From assembly GCA_040384805.1 (NCBI GenBank), contig JAZKIP010000001.1, positions 133,864-197,863 of the forward strand: a DNA stretch of 64,000 nucleotides, written 5' to 3'. This DNA comes from Patescibacteria group bacterium (GTDB lineage: Bacteria; Patescibacteriota; Minisyncoccia; Phycocordibacterales; UBA9973). This document shows, piece after piece, positions 17,462-60,600 of the stretch. Position 1 is the first letter of the stretch. Each line of letters opens with the position of its first letter. A program made the position numbers and the translations under genes. The notes beneath the pieces are model-generated. The model saw only the letters and a list, made by a program, of their open reading frames with translations, ran no database searches and was not told where the DNA came from.

Positions 17462-17596
17462 ACAGTGAGTGTAGACTAATATTTTTGAAATATCAATCTT
17501 ATCTTTTTTAAAAAATTCTAAATTTTTCTTAAAAATTACCAGAACATATAAACATCTATTCCGTCAATGGGTATTGTATGGTAAAATAACGCCTAT

Positions 17597-31372: not shown

Positions 31373-31400
31373 GTAATTTGACTATCCTCGATAATAGCCA

Positions 31401-32772: not shown

Positions 32773-32803
32773 AACTCTATTCTATCATACTCATCCGAAC
32801 ATC

Positions 32804-32830
32804 GTCCCAGGTTCGGAGCAAATTTTTGAG
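32804..32830 (+). repeat. Hairpin-repeat family copy
   Basis: TCCGAACATCGTCCCAGGTTCGGAGCA. Arms CCGAAC/GTTCGG around loop ATCGTCCCAG. Confidence 0.5.
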
Positions 32831-33431: not shown

Positions 33432-33482
33432 CATTTAATTTTCTTTAAGTTTTCTGCTTGTCTATGCTTGTCTAAAAGGGCT

Positions 33483-33510
33483 TTCCGAACATCCTCCCAC
33501 GTTCGGAGCA
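33483..33510 (+). repeat. Hairpin-repeat family copy (consensus-like)
   Basis: TTCCGAACATCCTCCCACGTTCGGAGCA. Confidence 0.5.
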
Positions 33511-33616
33511 AACGAAAACCGCTTTAGAAATAAGGAAATTTTTGTGACCTTAATAGAAGTTTGAACCTAGTGATATAATACACTTAGGTTCTATTATTAA
33601 TTATAAAATAATATTT

Positions 33617-43901: not shown

Positions 43902-43976
43902 AATTAAATTGCTCTTGACTTTATATATAAAAATGTTATTCTAATAATAGATTTTGTAACCATTAAAACAGTATAT

Positions 43977-44390
43977 ATGAAATCAGATTTTGAATCTATT
44001 ATTCATGTTATGAAGACCAACGGAGTTGGCTTTATAAAATCCTTTTTTTCTGAAGACTCGTCTTTGGATGAAAAACCTTCTATCCTAAAGGAAAATTTCA
44101 TAACTATCAAATTCTCCGATGGCAAGGAAAAGCTAGGATGGCTGATACTTACAGGAGATGACTATATCAATCATCTGATTACGCACATAAATGATTCTGA
44201 AAAAGAAGCCAGGGCAATGGTTACTGGGCCTGATTATACAACATATATCCGGCTCCGTAGCATACCGTACGAACCGACGAGCAAGAGAGAGAATATCTGC
44301 CATATAGATATTCTCTTAAAGCATCTCGATAAAGGTATCGGAGAAGCAATCATAACCCCAAGCCTTGAAAGCAGGAACGATTTCAAATAG
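43977..44390 (+). CDS. Hypothetical protein
   Basis: 137-aa ORF with no recognisable motif. Confidence 0.4.
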   Translation: MKSDFESIIHVMKTNGVGFIKSFFSEDSSLDEKPSILKENFITIKFSDGKEKLGWLILTGDDYINHLITHINDSEKEARAMVTGPDYTTYIRLRSIPYEPTSKRENICHIDILLKHLDKGIGEAIITPSLESRNDFK

Positions 44391-44457
44391 TAACCAAAAC
44401 AGCATCCTTTAATACTCCTGAGCATTATGCGCAGGAGTATTTTACAATGAAAGTCTC

Positions 44458-44567
44458 ATTTGTCGATAATATCTATTCACTGTTATAATGACCCAATCAT
44501 GGATTCAAAGTTTATTCACCTCCACACTCATTCCCACTATTCCCTCCTCGACGGATTGTCTAAAATC
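44458..44567 (+). repeat. Left 110-bp direct repeat: a copy of the dnaE promoter plus the first ~27 codons
   Basis: 108/110 nt identical to 57504..57613, including the TTGTCG/TTGTCA -35 box, a 17-nt spacer, the TTATAAT -10 box, and ATGGATTCAAAGTTTATTCACCTCCACACTCATTCCCACTATTCCCTCCTCGACGGATTGTC. Confidence 0.9.
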
Positions 44568-44654
44568 ATCATTAATAAAATTTATCGCCTTTGTACCCAG
44601 AGAAAATTATTGCCTAACTATCGAAAATCCAGCTTATTCTTACGATGCATATGA
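44460..44654 (+). pseudogene. Truncated duplicate of the DnaE N-terminus (first ~35 aa, then unrelated tail)
   Basis: MSIISIHCYNDPIMDSKFIHLHTHSHYSLLDGLSKI is identical to the start of ORF 57506. It diverges after the repeat boundary. Confidence 0.8.
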
Positions 44655-44776
44655 GTAAGGCGATTTAGATTGTCATAGGAAAATGAAGTAACATTTTGCC
44701 CGCTAACTGATAGCCAATACACATTCATAAATATGAACAAAATAAACCGCATGACAATCTTTTTTACTATTCCAAT

Positions 44777-45229
44777 CTAATAACTTTTAAAATACTCAAA
44801 AGTCATTTTCTTTATTATTTCAGCGATTGTGAGGGCATTCCTAATAAATTTTATCCTGGAATTTATTTCTCCATCGGAATCCCAGTTGTCTTTGTTTCCC
44901 CATATGTGCCTCAAAAGCTTCTCTTTGAATTCATCCAATTGGAGACTCTTTGCATCCTTTTTAAACTGCAATTTGATTTTAATTCTCTGATTAAGAAAAA
45001 TATCAAATCCGAAAAATGGGCCAACAGTTCCTACTTTATGGATTGCTATTATACTAAATGAGTCTCCTTTGCTATCCACAATTTTAGCATTCTCAAAATA
45101 TAATTTCCCCTTTTTTGTACATACTGTTAAATCACTGTCATTTCTAAAAAATGCTATAACTTCTTTGCCAAAACAAATTATAGGATATTCAAAACTATTT
45201 TTAGTCGTTTCGTCCATAATTGTTACCAA
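44777..45229 (-). CDS. Hypothetical protein, between the left boundary repeat and the first 37-bp array repeat
   Basis: 150-aa ORF only. Confidence 0.35.
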   Translation of the reverse strand: MVTIMDETTKNSFEYPIICFGKEVIAFFRNDSDLTVCTKKGKLYFENAKIVDSKGDSFSIIAIHKVGTVGPFFGFDIFLNQRIKIKLQFKKDAKSLQLDEFKEKLLRHIWGNKDNWDSDGEINSRIKFIRNALTIAEIIKKMTFEYFKSY

Positions 45230-45297
45230 TACTTTTAATTATATATAGTCCAGTTTTTAAGTTGCACAACCTCCTTTTAACGACACTAGTATGCAAG

Positions 45298-45911
45298 TTG
45301 TAATACAAGTAATGTTCGTTTCTTGATGACGATTTTCTTATTTTATATAAGCTGAATTTTCTTTGAATAGTAATGGCTTTTGTTATATTTCTTAGATAGT
45401 AGATTGCCCCATTTCCCCATCTTTTTTTATTACTTTCAGCGTCAAAACCAATTATCCCAAACTTTACGTTGTAATCCACGGAGACATAATAGTAGTAATA
45501 ATAGTATTCATGATTGCCAAGGTCTTTCAATTCAAATGTTAGCCTGAAATCTGTTTCGGAATCTCCTTCTTTCTTTTGCGATTTTAAGTATTCCTTAATT
45601 GCTTCAATTTTCTTTCTGCTCTTGTTTTTAGACAAATTTTTGTGATTGTAAATATCACAGACATATCTTGCTGAAACAACCTCTTGTTTATTTTTTTCTT
45701 CTAGAATATTGCGATTTGCGTGATTATTGATATTCGTCGCGATAGTACTATAATTTGCAGGGTTTTTTAATTTTCCTTGTGGCGGGTTATCCTTAAAATA
45801 GTCACGTAACAAGCGAACAACTTCTTTTAAATCTGTAGTGGAATACAGTTCCGTTTTCCGAACGCGGGCTGTAAGTTTCTTATATATATTAGGATCAATG
45901 GTTTTTTTCAT
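45298..45911 (-). pseudogene. Spacer-1 gene fragment, C-terminally truncated at the repeat junction
   Basis: ORF 45201..45911 reads through repeat 1. The tail translated from the repeat, LHTSVVKRRLCN, recurs in every ORF that crosses a repeat on the minus strand. Confidence 0.4.
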
Positions 45912-46827
45912 GAGTTCAAAATAGAAAATTGTGAAGATTTTTGTGAACTTTTTTTAAAAAATGTGTATGTCTCCGTTAACATGATCTATAGAAATGGTGG
46001 GAATTTTACCGCGATGGTAGCTAATAAAAAAACCCACCAGTTTTTTACTAGTGGGCCATCATCGGAAGGAACAGTATTCCGAGATGTAGCCTATAAGGTT
46101 GTTCAAAGCAACCAAGTGGCGTTCCTTTATTATACTGATTGTCAGTATAATAGCAACGTTATCTCTGTCTGTTCCAAATTAAACATGTAAAATCTATGTT
46201 TTATGGAACAGTATACATCCTTAAGATTCTCTGAATTAAGCGACGCAATTCTTGCCGGCTACAAGCATGATTTTGTAATACAAGTTAGTGGTACGCTTAA
46301 ATGCCTCTCAAAACCGGGTAAAGTTTATTCTCCTGATGAGGTTGATATAAGAGTCATTACTTCTTTGAAGAAGAAGGCTAGCCTTCTTCTTATTACTACC
46401 AATGATGGATTATACAAGGGAACGTCGGTGGATTATTGGGAATATTAAGTAAGGTCTAAATTTATTATCCTAAATAAGATTAGTTGCACAACCTCCTTTT
46501 AACGACACTAGTATGCAAGGTAATAATTTTTTTTATTTATAACATCATTGAGACATTGTAGAACAGTCTATTATTCTTCTCTTCACATTACGGAGAGCCA
46601 TCAGTAAAAAAAACCATCAACATTTGTTGATGGTTCACCCGTTCGGTAACAGCTTACCGAGAGATTATTTTACATAGTGGTGACACACTACGTAACGTAA
46701 TGATAATCTATCACTTATAGGTTATTTGTCAACTCTTTGTAGCCTGTTCCGACCATATCTGTAAAAAATATGGTTTATGGAACAATATAAGTTGCACAAC
46801 CTCCTTTTAACGACACTAGTATGCAAG

Positions 46828-47517
46828 GCTTATGATCCAGGAAATAAGTTCTCAATCCCATTTCAGTATTCAGCCTGTGGAATAGGAGTTGACACAAGCA
46901 AAGTCAAAAACTTCAAGAAAAGCTGGTCACTCCTCTTTGATGAAAAATATAAGGGCAAAATCAGTATGTTAGATGATATTCGTTATGGAATGGTTCCGGC
47001 ATTGAAGACCCTTGGCTATTCGCTAAACACAACTAACGAAACCGAATTAAGTCACGTTAGAGATTTATTGTTAAGGCAAAAATCTTTGGTCCGAGCCTAT
47101 ACTAGCGATACATATATTGATCTTCTCAAGTCAGGGGAAGTCTGGATAGCGTATGGATACACTGGGGATATTTATCAGGCGATAAAGGAAAATTCTAATA
47201 TTGTTTATTTTATTCCAGAAGAAGGGTCTGCGCTTGCAGTAGAAAGCATGTGCATCCTGAAAGGAGCTAAAAATAAAAAAACGGCCGAACAATTTATGAA
47301 TTATATTCTGGAACCTCAAGTAGATGCGGATATAGTAAATCACACTCAATATGCAACTCCAAATGATTCGGCTAAACAGTTTATTAACCCCAAAATTCTG
47401 AATGATGAGAATATTTTTCCAGGAAATTCAGTTTTTCTGAAAAGTGAGTATATACGAGATCTTGGTAAAGCAAATCTGCTATATGATAAACTATGGACCG
47501 AAATAAAGACCAAATAA
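46828..47517 (+). pseudogene. Spacer-3: N-terminally truncated PotD/PotF-like polyamine ABC substrate-binding protein fragment
   Basis: C-terminal ~230 aa of a spermidine/putrescine-binding protein fold (…GEVWIAYGYTGDIYQA…NYILEPQVDADIVNHTQYATPN…). It starts directly at the repeat junction with no start codon. Confidence 0.5.
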
Positions 47518-47610
47518 CAGTTTTTCCTTTGACAATTCAATAAACTTGCATCGTATTAGTTGGCGTAGTAAAATCTAATATTATTAGAGATTATAGGACT
47601 TCATGCCAAG

Positions 47611-48495
47611 ATGAATGAAAAATATAAGCTGAGAAATATCGAGCCCGGAATTTATCGCCAGCGAGGTATAGCCGAATTTCGCATTCTTGAATCCTCGATT
47701 TCAAAACGGGTATTTATAAAATACCTCAAGGAACTTTCCCGAAATTTAGGAATGCAACCACATCCAGAATTGCCAGAGCCAGTTATTACTTCAGCTTCTG
47801 GCTATACTTTACAAAAGCATGATGGCCTTGAAGGATTTCTATTCTGGCTAGAATCAGGACTTCACGCTTATTACTGGAAGCGTCCACAGATAATAACTGT
47901 GGACATGCATTCTTGTAAACCACTTATTGAAGAAGCTGTTGAAAATACAAGTAGAAGTAACTTTAGTATTGTTGAGTACAATTATGTAGACCTAGTTTTA
48001 AAAGAAAAGAAAGACAGTCAAAAAGTAAGGACCAGAATATATTCAATATCCCGAAAAGGCCTAATCGCTTCAAAACGCATCAAAAAAGATGAGTATATTT
48101 CTGGGTATTATGGTGAAGTTCACGAAATAAGAAGGACAAAGAAATTTTATAGAGCAGAATTTAAGAATGCAGTTCAATTCGCCGAACATAAATGGCGGGA
48201 ACCTGTCTTAAATAGTCTTGCACAAAACATTAACCATGCGTGTGTACCAAACTGCGGCATTAAAGGTATGTTTGATATAGTTGCCATTAGAAATATTGAA
48301 ATTGGTGAAGAATTATTGTTAGATTATGCAATGACAGAGGATTCCGACTTGAATATCCCTAAAGAAAAATGTTTATGTGGCACAAAAAAGTGCCGTGGAA
48401 AAGCAGTTCCTTATAAAAAGCTACCAAAAGAAGTCAAAGTATTATATAATAATTACATCTCCGAATGGTTAAAAAATAAGTATTATATCAACTAA
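47611..48495 (+). CDS. SET-domain protein (lysine methyltransferase-like), complete gene inside spacer 3
   Basis: NHACVPNC (SET NHxCxPN motif), EELLLDY (ELxxDY motif), and the post-SET Cys cluster CLCGTKKCRG. Confidence 0.65.
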   Translation: MNEKYKLRNIEPGIYRQRGIAEFRILESSISKRVFIKYLKELSRNLGMQPHPELPEPVITSASGYTLQKHDGLEGFLFWLESGLHAYYWKRPQIITVDMHSCKPLIEEAVENTSRSNFSIVEYNYVDLVLKEKKDSQKVRTRIYSISRKGLIASKRIKKDEYISGYYGEVHEIRRTKKFYRAEFKNAVQFAEHKWREPVLNSLAQNINHACVPNCGIKGMFDIVAIRNIEIGEELLLDYAMTEDSDLNIPKEKCLCGTKKCRGKAVPYKKLPKEVKVLYNNYISEWLKNKYYIN

Positions 48496-48796
48496 CATTA
48501 GCCATATCAGTTCCCCTGCATATAATATAGTTTGAAAAAACGCTAAAGTTTTGAAGGCTCAAGCAGCTGTATATTCGCGGGTTATTAAATCTGCAAAATC
48601 GTGAGGTTTAAGCAATACCATGTTAAAATTGAATGGACAAAGCTTTCCCTGATGAAATTTATAGCGTTTGTTCCTATCAAGAACTATTGCTTATTGATAC
48701 AAGATCCAACTCATATATTTGGAGTAATTGCAGGCACAGAGATTATGGAATTTTTAACCGTTGCACAACCTCCTTTTAACGACACTAGTATGCAAG

Positions 48797-49227
48797 TGAT
48801 CCACGCAACGGCCCATGAAAGTCGCTTGAATAGGACATCGATCTTGGAAATGTCAGAACATGGTGCAGACCCATACAGTATCGAAGAATTGATCGCAGAA
48901 ATGGGAGCCTCATACCTCTGCTATCATGCCGGCATTCTTCCGACCCCAATAGGAGACTATTTCGCCTACCTGAACGGCTGGCTCTGGATAAGCTTCGGCA
49001 AGATACTCACCTTGTTGTTACAGCAAGCGTATATGCGCAGCGGGCGGTTGACTACATTCTGGGGTATAAGGAGGCAACCAGCGAGAAAAAAGAGGAAGCG
49101 GAAGTGCCCGAAGCCATGGATGGGGAATAGGAGACATCTATACACAAAGCCCGGACTTTTCCGGGCTTTTTATAATTACTATTTCTTTTTTACTTCGTTA
49201 TATTTCAAACAAAAATTACAAGTATGA
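48797..49227 (+). pseudogene. Spacer-4: 3' fragment of an ArdC-like antirestriction/zincin gene, starting mid-gene at the repeat junction
   Basis: Begins ...IHATAHESRLNRTSILEMSEHGADPYSIEELIAEMGASYLCYHAGI (the HExxH...RLNR ArdC C-terminal metallopeptidase motif). The first 258 nt are 100% identical to 51706..51963 in spacer 6, then the two copies diverge. A terminator hairpin AAGCCCGGACTTTTCCGGGCTTTTT follows. Confidence 0.55.
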
Positions 49228-49256
49228 AAACAAGTATTCTGATTAACAATTTCATT

Positions 49257-49502
49257 CTATTCTTTATCTCTTATTTCTTGTCTTGCTCTTGAAAGATTTT
49301 CAAAGTAGTTCCCCTCAAAAGTTTCAGACACAATTTTCTCTAATGATGATTCAATATCAAAAAGAATTCTTTCTTCTGCTTGATCTTCAAATAGCAACGG
49401 GTGTTCTTTCTGATTGAATTTGGTTAACCATTCGAGCAGAACGAGAGCTTCATTACTACTTAGTTTTAGGAATATGTTTTTATTGTCTTTTATAACTTCC
49501 AT
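49257..49502 (-). CDS. Hypothetical small protein inside spacer 4
   Basis: 81-aa ORF. Confidence 0.35.
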   Translation of the reverse strand: MEVIKDNKNIFLKLSSNEALVLLEWLTKFNQKEHPLLFEDQAEERILFDIESSLEKIVSETFEGNYFENLSRARQEIRDKE

Positions 49503-49738
49503 AATTTATAGACCTCCGTGTTCAAGAACATTTTTTAATTGTACGGGATTAAGTTTCCAGCCGCTAATAAATTGTCCCGAAGGACTAGAGATAACATTAA
49601 GACCAGTATTTGGATTGAGATAGTGTATTACTGATTGACCTCTATATGTTCCATTAATAGCTTGAACACCTGCGGAATTGTTGCACAACCTCCTTTTAAC
49701 GACACTAGTATGCAAGAAATGGCGAGCAAATAAAAATT

Positions 49739-50380
49739 TTGGGCGTAGTGGCTCTTCAAAGAAATAGATCAATAATTAAAAAAATAGATAGAGTAATATC
49801 TACCATTTGGGACATAGCCAAGAAAAATTCTACTCCTAATGAAAATATAGTTATCCTGGAGATTTCAGAAGTTACCGGGATATCTCCAAAAGAAGTTAGT
49901 CTTTGTTTGCACCTCATTTCTGATTATGGTCAGTATGTTACGGGGAGTATAAGCGAGCAGAACACAAGGCTCTACACCGCAATTCAGATAAACGAAGATA
50001 TAAATGTATACTATAGGTATAGCGAATTTCCTGAGGCAAGTTCTCTCCTTGCATTGGATGAAATTAAGAATCAGACGCAACCCCAGGAGTATTTTAAGGA
50101 TGATGAAATTCTGACAATCGGTTGGCAATTGGATAGATTAAGGGAAGAATTTAAAAACGGCATATGTGTATTACAAACCGGACAGGAAATCATCTGGACG
50201 GATAATCAAGAAGATATCGCAGAAATGAAAATTCAGCTTTCCAAATTATCGAAGAAAAACTGGTTTCAACTCTTTATTGGTAAATTATTTTCAAAAGGCA
50301 TTGATAAGCTTTTCTTTGAACCTCTGTTTGAAAAGATTAAGAATTTTGTTGATCCGGCAATAAGTGGATTACTGAATTGA
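49739..50380 (+). CDS. Hypothetical protein inside spacer 5
   Basis: 213-aa ORF starting 23 nt after repeat 5. Confidence 0.4.
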   Translation: MGVVALQRNRSIIKKIDRVISTIWDIAKKNSTPNENIVILEISEVTGISPKEVSLCLHLISDYGQYVTGSISEQNTRLYTAIQINEDINVYYRYSEFPEASSLLALDEIKNQTQPQEYFKDDEILTIGWQLDRLREEFKNGICVLQTGQEIIWTDNQEDIAEMKIQLSKLSKKNWFQLFIGKLFSKGIDKLFFEPLFEKIKNFVDPAISGLLN

Positions 50381-50544
50381 GGCTGCGCTTAATGCGATCC
50401 GTTACAATTTGCTGTTTTCCGTCCAATGATAAACTGTGTTTTCAGTGGCTTCGACAACTTTACATAATTACTTATGCCGGTTCTTCTGCTTCCTGTCATT
50501 TCTTCCCCGCTGCTGAAGAGAATTTATGTAGGGATTAGCAATCT

Positions 50545-50919
50545 TTATTCATCTGAGAATTCTTCAAGATCGAGTATGGCAAGCCCTTTGATTCCGTCTG
50601 GTGTCCTGATCCAGTATACGACAGAACTCGAATCAAAACACACTTCTAGATTGGAAATACATGCGTGTATTCGATAGCTGGTGGCAAGATCAGAGGAGCA
50701 ACGGAGTAAGCCATCTCTAAACTCAAACTTGACGGTATAACCATCCGCTAGGGCTTTTATGACTACCGGTGAGCATAGTTCTAATTCTGAAAAAGCTTTC
50801 ATTAAGAAAGGGTAATTGACTTCCTTCATGCTAGGCTGTGATTTCTCCGGATTATTCCGACCGGAATCTGAAGAGGCCGGCATTTCATACTGGCATTGAA
50901 TAGTAGATTTCTGTTCCAT
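50545..50919 (-). CDS. Hypothetical protein inside spacer 5
   Basis: 124-aa ORF. Confidence 0.35.
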   Translation of the reverse strand: MEQKSTIQCQYEMPASSDSGRNNPEKSQPSMKEVNYPFLMKAFSELELCSPVVIKALADGYTVKFEFRDGLLRCSSDLATSYRIHACISNLEVCFDSSSVVYWIRTPDGIKGLAILDLEEFSDE

Positions 50920-51264
50920 AACATTATTTTTTAGAGTTTGATAATGTCGGAACAGCCTGCGGAGAGGTTGACAGATCAGTCTATAAATGACAGAATGTCA
51001 TTATGTTACGTAGTGGTGGTACACTATGTAAAATAATCTCTCGGTATGCTGTTACCGAAGGGGTGAACCATCAACAAAATGTTGGTGGTTTTTTTCTTTG
51101 CTAATAGTCTATCCCAATAAAAGAAGAAACAAATGGCTGTAATCCACTGTCTTAATGCTGTTATAAATAAAAAAAATTATTACATTACTGTATTAAAAGC
51201 TGCGTTAATGGGAAACCGCTTAAAACCGTTGCACAACCTCCTTTTAACGACACTAGTATGCAAG

Positions 51265-52045
51265 CAAAAACCTCTATCTCACCTGGGACCAAATCAAGGA
51301 GGTCGGCGGATCGGTAAACCGGGGGCAGAAAGGGCATGTCGTTGCCTACTGGAAAATGATCTCGAAAGAACAAACCCGAATGGTACACGAGAAAAATGAA
51401 CTTACTCCGCTTCTCCGGTACTACAAAGTGTTTAACATTTCGCAGTGCAGGGACCTTCCCGATAACCTACTTACTCGGGCGGAGACGTTCCCACAGGGTA
51501 TTGACGCTGGCAGTTCTTCCAAAAAGAAAAATTCGATCTTCTGCGAGGCGATCTACAACAACATGCCTCTGCCCCCAGAGATTAAGTATGAATCCCAGAA
51601 GGCTCTCTATGACCCCGCTCAGGATTACGTCAGCATGCTCAGGAAAAAGAGCTATAAAGAGCCTTCAGGCTACTATGCAGCCCTGTTCCATCAGTTGATC
51701 CACGCAACGGCCCATGAAAGTCGCTTGAATAGGACATCGATCTTGGAAATGTCAGAACATGGTGCAGACCCATACAGTATCGAAGAATTGATCGCAGAAA
51801 TGGGAGCCTCATACCTCTGCTATCATGCCGGCATTCTTCCGACCCCAATAGGAGACTATTTCGCCTACCTGAACGGCTGGCTCTGGATAAGCTTCGGCAA
51901 GATACTCACCTTGTTGTTACAGCAAGCGTATATGCGCAGCGGGCGGTTGACTTTATTTTGGGATATAAAGAGGCAACCAGTAAGAAAAAAGAGGAACGGG
52001 AAGGGTCCGCAGCCATCGAAGGGGAATAACAAATATTTAACATAA
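51265..52045 (+). pseudogene. Spacer-6: N-terminally truncated ArdC-like antirestriction gene (longer fragment than in spacer 4)
   Basis: The frame is open from the repeat junction: KNLYLTWDQIKEVGGSVNRGQKGHVVAYWK (ArdC N-terminal ssDNA-binding domain), then ...LFHQLIHATAHESRLNR.... No start codon. A terminator hairpin AAGCCCGGATACCGGGCTTT follows. Confidence 0.55.
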
Positions 52046-52288
52046 TAAGCCCGGATACCGGGCTTTCTTTAATTAAGTGTTAACTATTAGCCATTATAAC
52101 TTGTTATTAAAAATCTCACTAGTTTTTTGAAATTACCTTAGAAAACCTCTAATTTACTACCTTTGCCATCCATTAAAGGAAATAAACATACAGTAAGATT
52201 ATCCTTAATGTGTATATAGGTCGTTTACAATAAGTTAACAAGTGGTACAATAATGGTAAGCTTTTTGTCACCTTAAATTTATTACATT

Positions 52289-52537
52289 ATGAAAAAGTAT
52301 TTCATACCAACGTTTAGACTTCCTTTCTCTTGGAAAGAGAAATTATTGGATAAGGTTGTTTATCAGCCTTATAAGTATTTTAATGGGGTTTATAAGGAAA
52401 CCGGCATTCTTGTCACAGAGAACCAACTAAATGAGATTGTAGAAATATTGTCTCTCAAATTGGTGTCCCAAAAGATGTCCGCTGAACCTGACATTATTGA
52501 AGTAACCGTCAGAAAATTGGACACGGTAGCAGCCTAG
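52289..52537 (+). CDS. Hypothetical small protein inside spacer 6
   Basis: 82-aa ORF. Confidence 0.3.
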   Translation: MKKYFIPTFRLPFSWKEKLLDKVVYQPYKYFNGVYKETGILVTENQLNEIVEILSLKLVSQKMSAEPDIIEVTVRKLDTVAA

Positions 52538-52571
52538 ACGAATACCATATTTAGGTCCCTTAGGGGACCTT

Positions 52572-53542
52572 TTATTTTATCAGCTTATCGGAGTAAAAAA
52601 TATGATTCATAAATTCACTTATTAACTTAAAATCTGAATTCTTTAATCCGTCAATTAACAGCTTATATATATTCTTTCCTGTAAGGTTTATTCTATGGAT
52701 TACGTTGTTTTTTATGTAAGCAATTTCTTGTAAGTGGTAATCCTCCTTGGTTAAATCATAAAATATCCGGTCTCTATCTTTATTTAGCGCTATAGCTGGT
52801 CCTGAAATTTCGATGTTTGGTTTTTCAGAAAGTATTTTAAGAACTTCCGTAAGACACTGGGCAAAATCAAAAGTTCTGTTGTATAGCTTGTTCAATAACT
52901 CTAACTGATAAAACCAAATTAAATAGCGATTAACTCGCCTAATCTGGATTAATTTGAGATTTCCCTGAAGTGGGTTAAATGAAAACGTAGTTTCAAGTGC
53001 AGTATGAATTGAACTAATGGAATAGTCAATTAATTTACGCGAATCCTTATTTAAAGATTCACTAGCATAAAAAACGATGTCAGTGATAATAGCAAACGCA
53101 TCCGCTTGGTAGTCTGCTTCTTCTACCACTTTCGGAAAATTTCCAATCCCTTGTACCGTTCGCCGATCTAAATTGTGGAACTTATGCAGTGCTTCGTGAA
53201 GCACATAAAGTCGACAAGCTTGATAAAATTTATCATAGTTTAATGGATGATTACCTGTAAGAAATCTGTGATAAATGGATGCGAAGAAATTCACTTTAAT
53301 TTTCCACTGTTTACTGATATCCAAAAAATCTATATCTTGGTCCTCATCTACAAGCCCTTCTACGATGGTATTAGAAAAAAATTGGCTCGTATCATCCAAC
53401 TCAAAATAATTAGAATATACCTCCGCCGGAAATTTCCAATAACTACTATGACAGAATATATCTTCGGGATGAATTTGATATCCGCTTAAAAGGGTTTTAT
53501 ACCACAGCTTCTTATTAAAATCCTGGTTTTTAATAAATTTCT
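52572..53542 (-). pseudogene. Spacer-6: HExxH-containing gene (HEALHKFH), N-terminally truncated at the repeat 7 junction
   Basis: The ORF reaches the repeat with no ATG; the ORF track uses a GTG inside the repeat. Possible ImmA/IrrE-like metallopeptidase, low confidence. Confidence 0.35.
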
Positions 53543-53868
53543 GTTGCACAACCTCCTTTTAACGACACTAGTATGCAAGGATTTTTGAATTGCATTCAAA
53601 TAGCCAAGAAGGTTTTGTATCAGTAGCTTCCTATAGGCTTCTACGAGTAAAACACTATTTCCTCCAGCCGGTAAAGCTGTGTAATATCTTGATTCTAACA
53701 TTCCCCGGTGTAATTAGTTCTGCGACTGATGTGTCTCCATTGTTTTTGTGATAAACAGAATAGGTGCAAAATCAATTTCTACCTTTTCAATTTCGAGCAA
53801 TGTTTGTTCTGTTTGAATATTGTCGTTCATTTTATTATGGGTTGAGTTGTTAATCGATGGCGCCAAAA

Positions 53869-54789
53869 TCAGAAACATTGACGTCCATAGTATTTTTCCC
53901 TTCGCAAAAAAAAATTTTTAAGTTGGTAATATCTTTTGTCTATTAATGACCTGCTTTGACCAGCCCCCGAAATATCATTTTTGGTGACTTTAAACTCATT
54001 ATAAAATGCATCTTTAAATGATTTCGAATTTAAGTCTTCTATTTCTTTGGCTGGATAGTATATCATTACGCATTTGCCTGTTTTAGCATTACCTATATCG
54101 CTGATATGAAGAAAAAGGCCAGCCGCAAACCCAACATGGCCAACATATGAATCAATATCACGTCCACAATTCATAACGTGGTAGGTGGGCTCATTGTTTA
54201 CCTCACTCTGCAGCTGTAGTACGAAGTTAGTACCTTTTATAACAACAGTGCCTTTCCCCCAATTTTTGCCATGGTAGTATTGAACTGTATCACCTATCTC
54301 GTTTTGCCATTTAATGAGAAAGGCAATCCTCCCCAAAATTGCTTCTCCCTCGTTCTCTAAGTTTTCTCTAAACCGGCCGTCCTTGTCATAGAAGCATTCC
54401 CAATAACCGTCGAGTTTTTGTAATTGTAGGATAGAGGATGTCGGAGTGGGTACTTGGCCCCCAGACGAAAAGAATTCACCCCTGTCACATCCATACGCAT
54501 AACGATACATCGTATTTATGAATTTCTTTCGGAAGGTCCGTACACCGTGCTTAGAATGATGAAAAAGAACTGCCAAAGGTTTGTTGGAACGAATGTTAAT
54601 ATTTTTTAGCGCTTTTCCTTTATTGATGGCTTCGTATAATGGATCGTAATTTCGCAAATTGGAGTTTAATATCTTATCAGGATTTTCGATTGCATTTCCT
54701 GTCGTGCTTTTATATTTTTCAATTACTGCCTTTCTAAGTTCGCTTAACTCGTGGTGCTCAAGTGTAATATTCCCAATTTCTGCTGTCAT
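53869..54789 (-). CDS. Hypothetical protein inside spacer 7
   Basis: 306-aa ORF. Confidence 0.4.
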   Translation of the reverse strand: MTAEIGNITLEHHELSELRKAVIEKYKSTTGNAIENPDKILNSNLRNYDPLYEAINKGKALKNINIRSNKPLAVLFHHSKHGVRTFRKKFINTMYRYAYGCDRGEFFSSGGQVPTPTSSILQLQKLDGYWECFYDKDGRFRENLENEGEAILGRIAFLIKWQNEIGDTVQYYHGKNWGKGTVVIKGTNFVLQLQSEVNNEPTYHVMNCGRDIDSYVGHVGFAAGLFLHISDIGNAKTGKCVMIYYPAKEIEDLNSKSFKDAFYNEFKVTKNDISGAGQSRSLIDKRYYQLKNFFLRREKYYGRQCF

Positions 54790-56115
54790 TTTTTACCCAG
54801 TTAAGTAAAGTAAATCAGAATTAAGCCCAAAAATACCATTAAATGCACACAATTAGGTAAAAAACTATAGTTTACTCTATGTAGGTGAAATACAATGGTT
54901 AAAATATTTTATTTTTTTAACTTATTTACCTAAATTTGGAATAGGGATACAGGTTTTCTGGCTCTTAAAAAAAGAGCCTAACGGTCTAACCACCGTTAAG
55001 CCCTGTAATAGCGGTAGTCTCGTTGACAATTATACCGCCTAGATAACAGTCTAACATGTTTTTCTAGTATAAATAACGTTAGACATATAGTATAGGTTTT
55101 TGTCAACTTGATTAGACCGCTAAGAAGCGATCCGATCAGGTTTTTTTATTTATATACACAAAATTAGAAATATACAATATGGTGGCATGGCTACATAAAA
55201 AATTGGGCAGACATCCCCCATAAAGGAAGAATCTGCCCACATGAAATATACCTGCTTTCGCAGACGTACAATTCAACTAGTCATTGCAAATGTATATAAA
55301 GCGGAAGCAGGTTAAAAAATCTTTTTTAACCTGTAATACGCTTTACAATGATAAGCAACATTAACAAGTGTCCTTTCCATGGGCACACCTCCGTTACATC
55401 AGCATCGAGTACAGACGAATTAGTCAGCCTTAAATCGTTGCACAACCTCCTTTTAACGACACTAGTATGCAAGTATTCATTAAGGGGCAGCGCTTCACTA
55501 CGAGGTGTCTGCCCTTTTTGTGTATATATGCGCCATAATATTATATTTGAACGAAAAATAAACAGTCTCAAATAAAAAAAGCCAGACTCGACAATTTATC
55601 TATTGCGGAGAGCTGGCTAAACCGTGTAGTGCTGCTGCTAGACGAACTTGACTTTTTAAGGCATTGAATGATAATATATTAGCAGCGGTTTAGCTTAAAA
55701 TTGATACCGCACAATTCACCGCTCAGGCCACGAACCTGAGCGGTTTTTATTTTTGTCTAAGGATATTGAAATAGGGACGGATAGTAAAGATAAGGGTAAA
55801 CATTTATTCGTTGCACAACCTCCTTTTAACGACACTAGTATGCAAGTATTTGTTTAGTTTAAATAAAAAACCTGACCAGATCGCTATTCGTGCGGTCTAA
55901 TCAGGTTGACAAAAAACCTATAATGTTGCCTAACGTTATTTATACTAGAAAAACATGTTAGACTGTTATCTAGGCGGTATAATTGTCAGCCAGACTACCG
56001 CTAATAGGGTTACGACGGTCTGATCACCGCCGGCCCTATTTTTTTATACTATGTGTATATGATTAAATTTGTTGCACAACCTCCTTTTAACGACACTAGT
56101 ATGCAAGTGCTTGTA

Positions 56116-56451
56116 TTATATATCTTTTTTAGGTTTTTTTCCAATTTTCCCCGAAAGTTGAATGATTTCAAAGGGTGGCATAGCTGCCGCTTTTTCTTTG
56201 GAAAGAATATCAAGATTAATAAAGCAAGATTGGCATAAACTGCTAATAAATACCTTTTCAGTTTTCTTGATGAACAATCCGCTCAAAAGGGTCTGGACTG
56301 TGCGCTTCTCCTTTTGATATAGCGGACCTATGTATAGATTTCTCATAATTGGTTTAAGTCCATAATTCTTACATACGATAACAGCTTTATTCCTATGTCG
56401 CCAATTATTGCTTTCCCAACTGATAATTATAGTCGAAGTGATGTTATTCAT
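56116..56451 (-). CDS. cas2: Cas2-like protein (divergent)
   Basis: ~111 aa. N-terminal IIISWESNNWRHRNKAVIVCKNYGLK aligns with the Cas2 pattern YDI...RR.Kv.k.L..yG (YD replaced by WE). Overlaps cas1 by 8 nt, as is typical for cas1-cas2 operons. Confidence 0.5.
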   Translation of the reverse strand: MNNITSTIIISWESNNWRHRNKAVIVCKNYGLKPIMRNLYIGPLYQKEKRTVQTLLSGLFIKKTEKVFISSLCQSCFINLDILSKEKAAAMPPFEIIQLSGKIGKKPKKDI

Positions 56452-57457
56452 TTTTTAAATTAAAAAGCTCTGTAGCATTGAATGCTTTTAGTGTCTTTTC
56501 TTTTCCTTGAAAGAATCGCGCAAGCGATCGCACTTGATCTTCCATGATCTGCTTGAGCGTATACTGTTTGCCTTTCCATATCACTTTTTCCTCCCAACGA
56601 TTTAAAATGGCTTCCGTGATGATAGCTATTCCTTCGGGCGAAAGTTTATATTTACCCTTGCCGATTGATTCAAACAATGACCGTTTACTCATTTTCTTTT
56701 CAATTATGAGCTGAAAGAGCACAGAGTCAACCACCGGCACCCGAAATTCTTCCACCAAATCGCAGACAAGCGCCGGTTTGCCGTACCGTTCTGTATGACA
56801 AAGACCGAAATAAGGATCAAGACCTACATAGAGGCATAATCGTTCCATTTCAGTATACAAAAAACCGTAACCATAATTAATAATATTGTTAAATTTATCC
56901 CCTCGTTTTCTGTCACGACCAGCGAAACGAATCAGTTTCCGAAGAGCAAAGAAATACGTGTTAGCAATTTGTCCTTCAATCCCCATGAGCTGATCTCGAT
57001 TCTTAGGATGATTCGGAATTGTATCTACTGTTTTAAGTATCGCTTCGCATTGTAAGATCTCTGTAGAAAAATCCTTTTTATATTTATAACCCAAATATCG
57101 CAAATGCAATATTTGATTAGTGCATTTACCTTTTATAAAAATCTTGGCAATGCTAAAAGATTCAGGAGATGTGGAAACTTCAAGCTGAGCGCGACGCAAA
57201 CTTGCAATTCCTTTTGGGGCACTTGAAAAGATTCTGCCGATAGGTATAGCGCGAAAATCCATATATACAATATCAACTTCGTGTTTAAGGGCGAGCTCAA
57301 CAGCAGCAGTAGTAAGAGAAGCGGGCCGGAGAATACGTATCTTTTCAACTCGTATCGCCGGATATTCCTTCTTCTCCTTCATCTTTGGGAACGTGAGAAC
57401 AAAACGTTCTCCACTTGCACGAATACTTGTACCATATTCATTGACGATTATATCCAT
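56444..57457 (-). CDS. cas1: CRISPR-associated endonuclease Cas1
   Basis: Hallmark C-terminal motifs NNIINYGYGFLYTEMERLCLYVGLDPYFGLCHTERYGKPALVCDLVEEFRVPVVDSVLFQLI (Cas1 NYGY...GLDP..G.LH...R.sL..DL.EeFRp..vD). N-terminal beta-rich domain. 337 aa. Confidence 0.9.
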   Translation of the reverse strand: MDIIVNEYGTSIRASGERFVLTFPKMKEKKEYPAIRVEKIRILRPASLTTAAVELALKHEVDIVYMDFRAIPIGRIFSSAPKGIASLRRAQLEVSTSPESFSIAKIFIKGKCTNQILHLRYLGYKYKKDFSTEILQCEAILKTVDTIPNHPKNRDQLMGIEGQIANTYFFALRKLIRFAGRDRKRGDKFNNIINYGYGFLYTEMERLCLYVGLDPYFGLCHTERYGKPALVCDLVEEFRVPVVDSVLFQLIIEKKMSKRSLFESIGKGKYKLSPEGIAIITEAILNRWEEKVIWKGKQYTLKQIMEDQVRSLARFFQGKEKTLKAFNATELFNLKNE

Positions 57458-57503
57458 ATATTTTAGGGATAAATAATAAACACATTATATTACAGAACGT
57501 CCA

Positions 57504-57613
57504 ATTTGTCAATAATATCTATTCACTGTTATAATGACCCAATCATGGATTCAAAGTTTATTCACCTCCACACTCATTCCCACTATTCCCTCCTCGACGG
57601 ATTGTCCAAAATC
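57504..57613 (+). repeat. Right 110-bp direct repeat: the native dnaE promoter and 5' coding region
   Basis: See 44458..44567. -35 TTGTCA and -10 TTATAAT lie upstream of the dnaE ATG at 57545. Confidence 0.9.
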
Positions 57614-60600
57614 GAAGACATGGTCAGGATCGTCAAAGAGCACGGCATGGGTGCACTTGCCGTCACCGATCACGGCAATATGTACGGCGCGATCGAACTC
57701 TACAAAGAATGCAAGAAACAAGGCATAAAACCGATCATCGGTGTTGAAGCGTATATCGCTGAACGCGGGCGTAAGGATAAGGAGCCGGGTGTCGATAACA
57801 AACGCTATCACCTGACACTTCTTGCCAAGAATCTTCAAGGGTACAAGAATCTCATGCGCCTTGTCACGCTTGCCAATCTTGAAGGATATTACTACAAGCC
57901 TCGCATGGACAAAGAGATCCTCAGGCAATATCATGAGGGTATTATATGCCTCTCGGGCTGCATGGGCAGTCAATTGTCTCAAGCAGTTCTTTCCGGCAAC
58001 ACTGAACGCCAGGAAATGCTCATCAAGGAGCATCAGAGTATATTTGGCGCTGAGAATTACTTCCTCGAGCTACACTCGCATCCCCATATCGAAGGAGATA
58101 AAAAGCTCCGCGACGGAATTATTGCTCTCGGACGGAAATTCAACATACCGCTCGTTGCAGCACAGGACTCCCACTACCCGTGCAAAGACGATCACGAGGC
58201 CCATCATACACTTCTTCAGGTCAATACCGGATCCGAAGGCAAGGACACCGGCAAATTCGAATTTTCTGAAGACGACTTTTCTCTTATCGATGAAAAAACC
58301 GCTCTTGAATATTTTGCAGATATTCCTGAAGCAGTCCCCAATACGCGCCTTGTGGCGGATCTTTGTGAAAACTATGATCTTGAGCTCGGCAAAGCATACT
58401 TCCCTGATTTTCCGATTCCGGAAGGGACAAATGCCGATGATATTCTTCGCGATTTGGCATACAAGGGATTCGAGTTCAGAGAATTGCCTCAGTCTCAGGA
58501 ATATACAGAGCGTCTTGAATACGAACTCGGCATTATCAAGCAAAAAGGATACCCAACATACTTTCTCGTAGTGGGAGATCTTCTTCGGTATGCCCGTGAG
58601 CACGGGATACTCACCAATATCCGAGGATCTGTCGCAGGATCGCTTGCGACCTATCTTTTAGGCATCACCAATGTCGATCCCCTCGACTATAAACTCCCGT
58701 TCGAACGATTCCTTAACCCTGAGCGTCCATCTCTCCCCGATATTGATATGGACTTTGCCGACAACCGCCGCGATGAGATTATCGCCTATGCAAAGCAGAA
58801 GTATGGCGAAGACAAGGTCGCCCAGATCGGAACGTTTGGTACCATGCTTGCTAAAGGTTCTGTTCGTGATGTCGCACGGGCGCTCGGATACCCTTATGCA
58901 GTTGGAGACCGAATCTCAACCATGATTCCGCTTGGCTCCCAAGGAATGCCGATGACGATCGAACACGCTTTTGAGCTTGTACCCGAACTTGCTGCAGCGT
59001 ATAAGAGCGAACCCGATACCAAGAAAATCATTGACCTTGCAAAGAAGATGGAAGGCTGCGTCCGCCATATCTCGGTCCATGCCGCAGGCGTCGTCATCGC
59101 TCCACGACCGCTCTATGAATTCTCGCCGATCCAGTTTGATCCGAAAGGAGGAAATATGATCACCCAATATGACATGTACAATATCGAAGATGCAGGACTT
59201 CCGAAATTCGACTTTCTCGGGATCCGCAACCTGGCAATTCTCGCCGATGCGGTAAAGCTCGTGAAAGAGCTTCATAATGTCGACATCGATCTTGATCGCA
59301 TTCCCCTTGAAGATAGGAAAACATTCGAAATGCTTGCCCGAGGAGAAACTATGGGCCTTTTCCAGCTCAACGGCTCTGGCATGACTCATTATCTTAAGGA
59401 GCTCCGGGCAACGACTATCCACGATATCAACGCCATGGTAGCCCTCTACCGCCCCGGACCGATCCAGTTCATTCCAATGTACATCGAGCGCAAGCATAAT
59501 CCTCGATTGATAAAATACTTGGATCCCGCGCTTGAGCCAATCCTCAAGCAGACATATGGAGTCCTTGTCTATCAGGATGATCTGCTTCTCATCGCGATAG
59601 AGATCGCCGGATACAGCTGGGGCGAAGCTGATAAGTTTCGAAAGGCGGTCGGAAAGAAGATCCCGAAAGAAATGGCCGAACAGAAGGATCGCTTCATCAA
59701 TGGCTGTGTCGAGCATAGCGGTTGGCCGCTTAAAAAGGCAACGGAACTCTGGAATCAGATCGAGCCGTTTGCCGCGTACGGTTTCAACAAGGCTCATTCG
59801 GCAAGCTACGGGCGGGTTGCATATCAGACGGCATATCTGAAGGCAAACTTCCCTGTCGAATACATGACGGCGATTATGACTGCCGAATCAGGAGACATCG
59901 AGAAGGTCGCCGAAATTGTGCACGAATGCCAGAAAATGAGCATCAACGTCCTTCCTCCGAACATTAATGAAAGCTTCGGCGGATTTACAGTGATAGTGGG
60001 GTCCGATAAGCCCGATGGACGGACGATCAGATTCGGTTTGCATACAATCAAGAATCTGGGCATAGACATTGCTGATTCGATTATCGAAGAACGCAAAAGA
60101 GGCGGCCCATTTAAATCATTGGCTGATTTCTTCGAGCGAATCAATCATAAGAATTTAAACAAAAAATCCGTTGAAGCGCTTGCCAAATCGGGCGCCATGG
60201 ATGATTTCGGCGATCGCAACATGATCATTGGCAATCTTGAAACTCTTTTAGCATTCAACAAAGAATTCCGTACCGTAGCGACGCAGGACTCTCTGTTCGG
60301 CTCTATCGGAGGCATCCAGACGACTCTTTCGCTCTCTCCTCAAGCGGAAACAACGATGAATGAAAAACTTGTATGGGAAAAGGATCTCCTAGGACTTTAT
60401 ATCTCAGGACATCCGCTTGATGCATACCGGGAGAAAATTGAGAAATTCGGAACACTCATCAAGAAGATAAAGGTAGAAACGCAGGTAGGCATGCCGGTAA
60501 CGGTCGCCTGCATCATCGACGATGTCCGCGTCATTACAACGAAAAAAGGTGATCGCATGGCATTTATAAAGGTTTCAGACCATAGCGGATCGATCGACGG

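What the first reader, a model, noticed from the sequence alone, without database searches (positions are those of the whole stretch)
44458..57613. The whole cas1-cas2 plus array module is an insertion at the dnaE 5' end, bounded by 110-bp direct repeats that include the dnaE promoter
Positions 44458..44567 and 57504..57613 are 108/110 identical. Each contains a -35 box (TTGTCG or TTGTCA), a 17-nt spacer, a TTATAAT -10 box, the dnaE ATG and its first ~23 codons.

- The left copy yields a 64-aa DnaE N-terminal pseudo-ORF, which then diverges.
- The right copy continues into intact dnaE.

The 12.9-kb segment between them (cas1, cas2, the array and one small ORF) therefore looks like a mobile or horizontally acquired module. 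It is bounded either by long target duplications or by att-like repeats in which the element supplies a replacement gene start.

The duplicated promoter at the left end points into the array on the + strand. This is the repeat's GTTGCAC... orientation. It could drive array transcription even though no canonical leader is present.
Basis: seen in the sequence. Interest (0 to 1): 0.75.

Follow-up and report, generated by a model that had tools for sequence, protein, structure and literature searches.

The report
Mobile Cas1-Cas2 module with giant spacers
A recently acquired Cas1-Cas2 gene pair sits just upstream of the DNA polymerase gene dnaE, flanked by a 110-base duplication of that gene's own start, and its CRISPR-like array holds 0.2-2.3 kb pieces of foreign DNA instead of ~35-base spacers, a trait its relatives in other ultra-small microbes share.

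Summary
The 110-nt direct repeat is real: 44458-44567 and 57504-57613 match at 108/110. Each copy holds the dnaE promoter, the ATG and 23 codons.

The 12.9 kb between the copies is an insertion.
- The two closest relatives (DnaE 91% and 87% identical) have one copy of the dnaE start and no cas genes there.
- cas1 has GC3 0.34 against 0.54 for dnaE.
- The Cas1 tree disagrees with the host tree.
- Both repeat copies use host-type codons, so the duplicated stretch is the recipient's own sequence.

No recombinase other than Cas1 is present, there are no terminal inverted repeats, and none of about 30 related loci has such a flanking repeat. I favour a one-sided homologous (Campbell-type or homology-facilitated) integration. 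This mechanism is inferred, not shown.

The larger result is the "array". Ten identical 37-nt repeats are separated by 224-2278 nt, and the repeats cut through genes. The same architecture (Cas1, a structurally confirmed Cas2, a short promoter-bearing leader, spacers of 140-4242 nt, no effector) recurs in 20 loci of Patescibacteria plus one DPANN archaeon. Some of these come from long-read assemblies. Eight full-text literature searches found no description of it.

The parts
44458..44567 (+). Left copy of the 110-nt direct repeat. It holds a decaying copy of the dnaE promoter (TTGTCG-18-TATAAT), the ATG at 44499 and 23 codons.
   Evidence: The derived G at 44465 weakens the -35 box; relatives have A.
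44499..44654 (+). Pseudo-ORF: 23 DnaE codons fused to 28 unrelated codons.
44568..45260 (.). T0: a 693-nt foreign-like segment (GC 0.30) between the left repeat copy and the most distal array repeat. It has no repeat on its left side and is probably a truncated old spacer.
45261..56107 (-). Long-spacer array. Ten identical 37-nt repeats (read cas-forward: CTTGCATACTAGTGTCGTTAAAAGGAGGTTGTGCAAC) separate nine spacers of 1185, 271, 1932, 883, 1511, 2278, 1857, 336 and 224 nt.
   Evidence: Genes are cut at spacer borders.
56108..56144 (-). Short leader with an array promoter (TTGGAA-18-TATAAT) overlapping the cas2 stop codon and abutting the first repeat.
   Evidence: 18 loci compared; promoter-like pair seen in the window, L003 and L005.
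56116..56451 (-). Divergent cas2 (111 aa).
   Evidence: AF2 model pLDDT 90.4. The top 19 Foldseek PDB hits are all Cas2.
56444..57457 (-). cas1 (337 aa). The acidic and histidine residues at the expected Cas1 active-site positions are invariant in the family.
   Evidence: PF01867 E=7.8e-64. TIGR00287, 231 bits. Invariant E161, H221, D233 and E236.
57484..57512 (-). cas1 promoter, TTGACA-17-TATAAT (12/12). Its -35 box overlaps the -35 box of the dnaE promoter.
57504..57613 (+). Right copy of the 110-nt repeat. It holds the working dnaE promoter (57506..57535) and the first 23 codons of intact dnaE.
57545..60733 (+). dnaE (1062 aa), intact.
43977..44390 (+). ORF137, an ORFan in the hypervariable slot between RNase HII and dnaE. 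It forms the left flank of the insertion.
17462..17596 (.). lepB/pth divergent intergenic region. This is the empty site of the related module found in the L003 genome.

Best explanation
A self-contained Cas1-Cas2 'long-spacer array' module entered this Patescibacteria chromosome recently by horizontal transfer. It landed in the hypervariable slot between RNase HII and dnaE, immediately upstream of the dnaE -35 box.

The integration duplicated 110 nt of the recipient's own dnaE promoter and first 23 codons.
- The right copy stays functional. It drives dnaE and, through an overlapping -35 box, the divergent cas1 gene.
- The left copy is a decaying relic.

Most likely route for the duplication (inferred): a recombination with a homologous join in the dnaE 5' region and an illegitimate join at the other end. 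This could be Campbell-type single crossover of a circular intermediate, or homology-facilitated illegitimate recombination after DNA uptake.

The module itself works like a CRISPR adaptation unit without a length ruler (inferred from anatomy). Cas1-Cas2 inserts random 0.14-4 kb fragments of foreign DNA at the cas2-proximal repeat and duplicates the 37-nt repeat each time. The array is transcribed from a promoter in the short leader at the cas2 3' end.
For: The repeat is real.

The module is an insertion and was acquired recently:
- Empty sites exist in L008 (DnaE 91%) and L009 (DnaE 87%), each with one dnaE start and no cas genes.
- There is a reciprocal empty site. The L003 module, from the same genome as L009, sits between lepB and pth. 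That site is empty in the window at 17462-17596.
- cas1 GC3 is 0.34 against 0.54 for dnaE.
- Cas1 and DnaE identities are incongruent across genomes.

The duplicated stretch is host sequence: both repeat copies have host-type composition, GC3 0.68 in the first 150 nt of dnaE.

No dedicated mobility machinery is visible:
- No recombinase other than Cas1 was found among the module's ORFs.
- No terminal inverted repeats were found.
- No flanking repeat was found in about 30 related loci, and none at the L003 insertion.

The RNase HII-dnaE slot holds a different, non-homologous gene in every genome examined.

The long-spacer array:
- The window has ten exact repeats.
- Across 20 loci there are 52 spacers of 140-4242 nt, median 1473 nt. 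One of these loci is a complete 876-kb chromosome.
- 71% of 86 spacer borders open directly into runs of 60 or more stop-free codons. Random host positions give 79% and shuffled spacers 19%.
- Truncated SBP and ArdC-like genes lie at window spacer borders.
- Spacers overlap one another: S4/S6 at 92%, S2/S5 at 79% inverted, S7/S9 at 88% inverted.

The proteins and leader:
- Cas2 is confirmed by fold.
- The leader and its promoter were compared across 18 loci.
- The most distal repeat in L003 is degenerate, 24/37.
- No gene family is conserved next to cas1-cas2 in more than 4 of 28 loci.
Against: Against the proposed integration route:
- No intermediate carrying the host's 110 nt was seen, either circular or in a conspecific donor.
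- 110 nt is near the lower limit for RecA-type recombination.
- L005 (DnaE 78%) has a related module joined to dnaE at the same nucleotide but without a second dnaE copy. This could mean site-specific targeting or an old residence rather than a one-off recombination.
- The left edge of the repeat coincides with a 12-13-nt motif (TTTATTGACAAAT). The motif lies upstream of cas1 in all three close modules and also upstream of dnaE in the empty L008 site.
- The short-read unitigs cannot phase the 96-nt identical core of the repeat.

Against the array model:
- Spacer acquisition by this Cas1-Cas2 has not been observed.
- No source for any spacer was found.
Confidence: 0.5

Rival explanations
1. Cas1-Cas2 itself integrated the whole module, in a casposon-like way. 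Its two strand-transfer reactions hit the dnaE promoter region 110 nt apart, and gap repair duplicated the stretch between them, just as the 37-nt repeat is duplicated at each spacer acquisition.
For: - Cas1 is the only integrase-like enzyme in the module.
- A staggered integration automatically duplicates the recipient's own sequence, which fits the native composition of both copies.
- This family evidently handles kb-sized DNA.
- In other genomes a 1.5-kb cas1-cas2-first-repeat unit is 97-99.9% identical at six or more places with unrelated flanks. It ends exactly at the repeat border where Cas1 would cut.
- Both ends of the 110-nt repeat contain TTG(N)NCAA, as do the ends of the 37-nt repeat.
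Against: - 110 nt is three times the repeat length. The motif offsets from the borders (2 and 4 nt) do not match those in the repeat (1 nt).
- One of the two motifs is simply the -35 box.
- The L003 insertion shows no duplication, and none of about 30 loci has a flanking repeat.
- There are no terminal inverted repeats.
Confidence: 0.17
2. The 110-nt copies are attL and attR of a site-specific integrative element. Its recombinase is encoded elsewhere or has been lost. The element carries a dnaE-start mimic so that insertion does not kill the gene.
For: - The window and L005 share the same junction at the dnaE -35 box.
- The motif TTTATTGACAAAT is present at the cas1-side end of three modules and in the empty L008 target.
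Against: - No tyrosine or serine recombinase is in the module.
- L005 has no second copy.
- Both copies have host-type codons rather than those of the low-GC donor.
- The shared motif is a consensus -35 box, so function explains it.
- The L003 module sits at an unrelated site.
Confidence: 0.1
3. The module is an old resident of the dnaE locus, inherited from the ancestor shared with L005 and lost in L008 and L009. The left dnaE copy arose later by a local duplication or rearrangement.
For: - blastn homology from cas2 through cas1 and the intergenic region into dnaE is continuous between the window and L005.
- Cas1 at 71% against DnaE at 78% is compatible with co-divergence.
Against: - cas1 GC3 is 0.34 against 0.54 for the host, so it is not ameliorated. 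L005 and L003 cas1 match their hosts.
- L003 Cas1 is 88% identical to L005 Cas1, although the L003 host is closer to the window.
- This reading needs two independent losses plus a precise secondary duplication.
Confidence: 0.1
4. Assembly or population artefact. The real molecules are a chromosome with an empty site and a separate 13-kb circle that shares the 110 nt, and the assembler joined them.
For: Independent Logan unitigs of the same run stop about 31 nt past the first mismatch in each copy. They therefore confirm each flank-repeat junction but do not phase the 96-nt identical core.
Against: - The two mismatches are each linked to a distinct flank.
- A 110-nt repeat is shorter than typical reads and the largest assembly k-mers (my own knowledge of assemblers).
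- L005, from a different study, shows cas1 next to dnaE on one contig that continues through the array to RNase HII.
- The segment has no replication genes.
Confidence: 0.06

Closest known systems
Canonical CRISPR adaptation module (Cas1-Cas2, leader, repeat-spacer array)
   Same: - Cas1 with an intact active site.
- A Cas2 fold.
- Identical 37-nt direct repeats directly after cas2.
- A short conserved leader with a promoter.
- A degenerate distal repeat (L003).
- Spacers that are foreign-looking random DNA fragments, some sampling the same source twice.
   Different: - Spacers are 140-4242 nt (median 1.47 kb) instead of about 25-70 nt.
- No effector or processing gene is linked in any of 28 loci.
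- The repeat matches no Rfam CRISPR-DR family.
Casposons (Cas1-solo self-synthesising transposons)
   Same: A Cas1-family integrase associated with movement of kb-sized DNA and with target duplication. The cas1-cas2-repeat unit is multicopy in some genomes.
   Different: No family B polymerase and no terminal inverted repeats. Casposons duplicate 14-15 bp of target (my own knowledge), against 110 nt here. Cas2 is present, and Cas1 scores as CRISPR-type (TIGR00287).
SXT/R391 integrative conjugative elements at the 5' end of prfC (from my own knowledge)
   Same: Insertion at the 5' end of an essential gene, with the gene kept alive by a promoter and start at the element junction.
   Different: Those use a tyrosine integrase and a short att core, and the replacement start is element-derived. 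Here there is no such integrase and both copies are host-type sequence.
Campbell-type single crossover and homology-facilitated illegitimate recombination in naturally transformable bacteria (from my own knowledge)
   Same: They leave a direct duplication of the homologous anchor flanking the inserted DNA. They need no element-encoded recombinase and no terminal inverted repeats.
   Different: No intermediate has been seen, and the 110-nt anchor is short.
Integrons
   Same: An integrase gene next to an array of kb-sized units separated by short recombination sites and read from a promoter at the integrase end.
   Different: - No IntI tyrosine recombinase.
- The sites are identical 37-mers, not variable imperfect-palindrome attC sites.
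- The units are random fragments that cut genes, not whole-gene cassettes.

Membership tests
CRISPR-Cas adaptation module | Cas1 integrase with conserved catalytic residues | tested here: met
   PF01867 E=7.8e-64. TIGR00287 scores 231 bits against a cut-off of 71.7. E161, H221, D233 and E236 are invariant in 27 family members.
CRISPR-Cas adaptation module | Cas2 partner encoded next to cas1 | tested here: met
   Single-sequence Pfam is below threshold. The family profile hits only Cas2 chains in PDB, best E=0.005. The AF2 model has pLDDT 90.4, and its top 19 Foldseek hits are all Cas2, with rmsd 1.3 A over 71 columns.
CRISPR-Cas adaptation module | Array of identical direct repeats adjacent to the cas genes, with a leader | tested here: met
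   Ten exact 37-mers start 8 nt after the cas2 stop codon. A leader motif with a promoter was compared across 18 loci.
CRISPR-Cas adaptation module | Spacers of uniform short length (about 25-70 nt) set by the Cas1-Cas2 ruler | tested here: not met
   Window spacers are 224-2278 nt. Across the family, 52 spacers range from 140 to 4242 nt and none is shorter than 140 nt.
CRISPR-Cas adaptation module | Linked effector or interference genes | tested here: not met
   No gene family recurs next to cas1-cas2 in more than 4 of 28 loci. The module's ORFs have no Cas effector hits. The rest of the genome could not be examined.
Casposon | Terminal inverted repeats, a family B DNA polymerase and a short (14-15 bp) target duplication | tested here: not met
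   No inverted repeats at 44568 or 57503. No polymerase among the ORFs. The duplication is 110 nt.
Site-specific integrative element (att sites plus integrase) | Element-encoded tyrosine or serine recombinase | tested here: not met
   Pfam and PHROGs scans of the module's ORFs find only Cas1.
Site-specific integrative element (att sites plus integrase) | Direct repeats at both ends and an empty site with a single copy in relatives | tested here: met
Site-specific integrative element (att sites plus integrase) | Excised circular form with a joined att site | not testable with these tools
   This needs read-level data from SRR26324625. The exact repeat was absent from the metagenome and viral contig collections.
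Integron | IntI recombinase, attC sites and whole-gene cassettes | tested here: not met
   No IntI was found. The sites are identical 37-mers. 71% of spacer borders cut open reading frames.

The most novel reading that the evidence does not exclude
This Cas1-Cas2 clade, found in CPR bacteria and at least one DPANN archaeon, is a ruler-less integrase. It archives kilobase-long random fragments of foreign DNA between 37-nt repeats, has no linked effector, and can also move its own cas1-cas2-repeat unit. On this reading the 110-nt duplication at dnaE is the footprint of such an off-array, Cas1-catalysed integration. The system would then be a living functional bridge between casposon-type transposition and CRISPR adaptation.
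Probability: 0.15. Interest if true: 0.95.

Novelty: new variant of a known kind. Interest (0 to 1): 0.8.

Why it matters
The insertion alone is a neat but fairly ordinary case. It shows how an island can land in the promoter of an essential gene without killing it, and it leaves repeats that could later excise it.

The module is what matters. Cas1-Cas2 is thought to measure spacers with a fixed molecular ruler. Here a conserved clade sits next to arrays whose units are 4 to 100 times longer, cut at random through genes, with no effector nearby.

If Cas1-Cas2 builds these arrays, several questions become directly testable:
- how spacer length is set;
- what a CRISPR-like memory does without a guide-sized RNA (long antisense RNA, a recombination substrate or DNA capture in organisms that live on imported DNA);
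- how adaptation modules evolved from casposon-like integrases.

Such an enzyme would also be of interest as a tool that inserts kb-sized DNA at a defined 37-nt site.

Tried and rejected
- **Tandem repeats.** Tandem Repeats Finder sees nothing because the units are too long.
- **Extra repeats.** No degenerate extra repeats lie near T0, the 110-nt copies or ORF137. Hits at 21/37 or better are no more frequent than in shuffles.
- **Flanking repeats as a family trait.** None was found in about 30 loci.
- **Exact 37-mer elsewhere.** 0 hits in metagenome and viral contigs.
- **Spacer sources.**
  - No match to the host part of the window or to other loci.
  - No close relatives of three spacer proteins in viral contigs.
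  - One hit at 38% identity in metagenomes.
  - No megablast match in plasmids or phages.
  - PHROGs recognises only the ArdC-like anti-restriction fragment.
- **ORF137 homologues for a same-flank empty site.** None exist; it is an ORFan.
- **L003 carrying a decayed dnaE start beyond the TTTATTGACAAAT motif.** Not significant, p 0.06-0.47.
- **RNA structure of the repeat, to fix the transcribed strand.**
  - A 7-bp terminal stem is 77% paired.
  - It has C/U-G wobble only in the cas-forward sense.
  - There is no compensatory change, and 448 of 500 shuffles do as well.
  - RNAalifold predicts nothing.
  - Result: inconclusive.
- **Mosaic donor patch in the dnaE 5' end.** None seen.
- **Literature.** Eight full-text searches and four papers read turned up no description of kb-long spacers next to Cas1-Cas2.

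Full report
**1. The observation**

Positions 44458-44567 and 57504-57613 are identical at 108 of 110 positions. The mismatches are G/A at 44465/57511 and T/C at 44561/57607. The repeat finder extends the pair to 119 nt at 96%. It is one of six direct-repeat families of 40 nt or more in the window.

Each copy has a -35 box, a TG-extended TATAAT box, the dnaE ATG and exactly 23 codons.
- The right copy (TTGTCA-18-TATAAT, 11/12) continues into a 1062-aa DnaE with PHP, NTPase, finger, HhH and OB domains.
- The left copy (TTGTCG, 10/12) ends in a 51-codon pseudo-ORF.

On the minus strand of the right copy lies a perfect TTGACA-17-TATAAT promoter (57512..57484, 12/12) aimed at cas1. The dnaE and cas1 promoters therefore share one palindromic -35 region, and that region is the left edge of the repeat.

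**2. What lies between the copies**

- cas1 is at 56444..57457 on the minus strand (PF01867, E=7.8e-64; TIGR00287).
- An overlapping 111-aa gene follows it. Single-sequence searches do not recognise this gene.
  - A family profile of it hits only Cas2 chains in the PDB, best E=0.005.
  - An AlphaFold model (pLDDT 90.4, beta-alpha-beta-beta-alpha-beta plus one extra helix) has Cas2 as its top 19 Foldseek matches.

The 'array' is not an ordinary CRISPR array.
- The 37-mer GTTGCACAACCTCCTTTTAACGACACTAGTATGCAAG occurs ten times without a mismatch (0 expected by chance).
- Successive copies are 261-2315 nt apart, which gives spacers of 224-2278 nt.
- The spacers have GC 0.33-0.39, against 0.436 for the host part of the window.

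The repeats cut genes.
- A solute-binding protein begins at Pfam profile position 82 directly after the repeat at 46791.
- An ArdC-like anti-restriction gene is 5'-truncated at 51265. A second, shorter piece of a 92%-identical gene starts exactly at 48797.
- Six spacer borders open straight into 142-322 stop-free codons.

Spacers also overlap each other: S4/S6 direct at 92%, S2/S5 inverted at 79% and S7/S9 inverted at 88%. This looks like repeated sampling of related foreign DNA.

A 693-nt foreign-like segment, T0 (GC 0.30), lies between the left dnaE copy and the last repeat. It has no repeat on its outer side.

**3. The long-spacer array is a family trait, not an artefact**

The source is an NCBI Patescibacteria MAG. 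Cas1 relatives were fetched with their flanks.

In 20 loci a homologous 37-nt repeat starts a few to roughly 40 nt after the Cas2 coding region. Read cas-forward, its consensus is CCTGCA-N8-GTCGCAAAAAGGA-NN-TTGTGCAAC. It recurs at kb spacing. The loci include:
- Taylorbacteria, Kaiserbacteria, Adlerbacteria and Parcubacteria MAGs;
- a complete 876-kb chromosome;
- one Aenigmatarchaeota MAG.

There are 52 spacers of 140-4242 nt, median 1473 nt. A more distant Cas1 (36% identical, Methanosarcinales) has a normal array with a 72-73-nt period.

Of 86 borders of spacers 400 nt or longer, 71% start an open run of 60 or more codons. Random host positions give 79% and shuffled spacers 19%. The units are therefore random cuts of gene-dense DNA, not gene cassettes.

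Other family-wide features:
- The sequence abutting the first repeat was compared in 18 loci. Most end alike (...GGCT). The window, L003 and L005 show a promoter-like pair there: L003 and L005 have TTGACA-17-TATAAT/G, and the window has TTGGAA-18-TATAAT at 56144..56115.
- The most distal repeat of L003 is degenerate, 24/37.
- No other gene family is linked to cas1-cas2 in more than 4 of 28 loci.
- The Cas2 family is rare, with 55 clusters among 1.84 billion representatives.

**4. Is the module an insertion?**

Yes.
- L008 (DnaE 91% identical) and L009 (87%) have the order GDH, peptidase M1, RNase HII, one unrelated gene, dnaE, SecA. Each has a single dnaE start and no cas genes.
- The gene in the slot between RNase HII and dnaE differs in every genome and the versions are not homologous. 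In the window it is ORF137, an ORFan.
- The genome of L009 keeps its own module elsewhere (L003), between the divergent lepB and pth genes. That site is empty in the window at 17462-17596. The two genomes are therefore reciprocal empty sites.

Evidence for transfer:
- cas1 GC3 is 0.34 against 0.54 for dnaE in the window. In L005 the values are 0.31 and 0.27. For L003/L009 they are 0.54 and 0.45.
- Cas1 of L003 and L005 is 88% identical although their DnaE proteins are 78% identical. The window's Cas1 is only 71-72% identical to both.
- In other MAGs a 1.5-kb unit is 97-99.9% identical at six or more places with unrelated flanks, four of them in one MAG. The unit consists of an imperfect palindrome, cas1, cas2 and the first repeat.

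The module is mobile.

**5. Origin of the 110-nt duplication**

- Both copies carry host-type codons. GC3 is 0.68 in the first 150 nt of dnaE, and there is no donor-like patch. The duplicated stretch is the recipient's own sequence.
- The left copy carries the derived A-to-G change in the -35 box, as expected for a relic.
- Nothing in the module other than Cas1 looks like a recombinase, and there are no terminal inverted repeats.
- No other locus has such a flanking repeat. The L003 insertion has no duplication.

I therefore favour a one-off recombination with one homologous join in the dnaE 5' region and one illegitimate join at the T0 end. This could be Campbell-type or homology-facilitated.

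Caveats:
- L005 has a related module joined to dnaE at the same nucleotide but without a second copy.
- A 12-13-nt motif, TTTATTGACAAAT, is shared by the cas1-side end of three modules and by the empty L008 site. It is also simply a consensus -35 box.
- Cas1-catalysed staggered integration, a trans-acting site-specific recombinase, an old residence with secondary duplication, and an assembly join remain as rivals.
- Independent unitigs confirm each flank-repeat junction with its linked mismatch but cannot phase the identical 96-nt core.

**6. Direction of array transcription**

The leader promoter points the other way (minus strand, cas-forward). The left dnaE copy is unique to this genome and weakened. 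A test for RNA structure in the repeat was inconclusive.

**7. Novelty**

Eight full-text searches and four papers read gave no description of Cas1-Cas2 arrays with kb-long spacers. Rfam has no matching repeat family.

- The insertion with its duplication is a moderately interesting instance of known island biology.
- The long-spacer Cas1-Cas2 module fails the defining short-spacer feature of CRISPR while meeting the others. I class it as a new variant of a known kind.
- That Cas1-Cas2 builds these arrays is inferred from anatomy and conservation. It has not been shown.

Noticed in passing
window 48797-49178 vs 51696-52075; 46520-46784 vs 50912-51183; 55006-55162 vs 55849-56006: Different spacers of the same array contain related but not identical copies of the same foreign DNA (92% direct, 79% inverted, 88% inverted). 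One pair begins exactly at a repeat border inside an ArdC-like anti-restriction gene. This suggests repeated sampling of one family of mobile elements.
   Followed up: partly
L012, L013, L017, L031, L035 at 9899-11402; L038 at 10005-11124: A 1.5-kb unit (30-nt imperfect palindrome TGTCCACGACGGGGACCCTTCGTGAACA, cas1, cas2, first repeat) is 97-99.9% identical at six or more places with unrelated flanks, four of them in one MAG. Its right end is exactly the repeat border. Perfect solo copies of the palindrome occur elsewhere (L035 at 2147 and 6185).
   Followed up: partly
L038 9967-11124: A cas1 gene lacking its first 93 codons starts directly after a full repeat and is followed by cas2, a repeat and five more units. 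Either a unit was inserted into cas1, or a cas1-cas2 fragment was captured as a spacer.
   Followed up: no
window 17462-17596: The 135-nt divergent lepB/pth intergenic region is the empty site for the 8.2-kb Cas1-Cas2 module of a related genome (L003). Both known insertion sites are divergent promoter regions.
   Followed up: yes
window 43902-44457 (ORF137): The slot between RNase HII and dnaE holds a different, non-homologous gene in each of four related genomes. Here it holds an ORFan with GC 0.35 and no relative among 5.8 billion proteins.
   Followed up: partly
window 56116-56451 (Cas2) and alignments A5/A9: The Cas2 family has near-invariant W12, C27, C73 and C76 (a CxxC motif after the last strand) and an extra C-terminal helix. 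The acidic residue usual at the end of strand 1 is E, Q or S. Whether this relates to the loss of spacer-length control is unknown.
   Followed up: no
window 30811-30858, 31388-31435, 32781-32828, 33471-33518; also 30884-30998/31458-31572 and 33821-34117/35683-35979: Four copies of a 48-nt motif with an inverted repeat (CCGAACATC-N-TCCCACGTTCGGAGC), plus two pairs of 115-nt and 297-nt diverged repeats, lie among small ORFs of 125-177 aa. This looks like a cluster of paralogous small genes with a shared hairpin element.
   Followed up: no
window 2847-2891 and 29892-29936: 45-nt inverted repeat (78% complementary), each arm about 30-50 nt from a tRNA gene (tRNA-Val and tRNA-Asn). Possibly a shared tRNA promoter or regulatory element.
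   Followed up: no
L041 (Aenigmatarchaeota) 11310-12929; L042 11343-14894: The most distant Cas1 relatives that still show the trait (39-40% identity) include a DPANN archaeon. The long-spacer architecture therefore crosses the bacteria-archaea boundary among ultra-small episymbionts.
   Followed up: no
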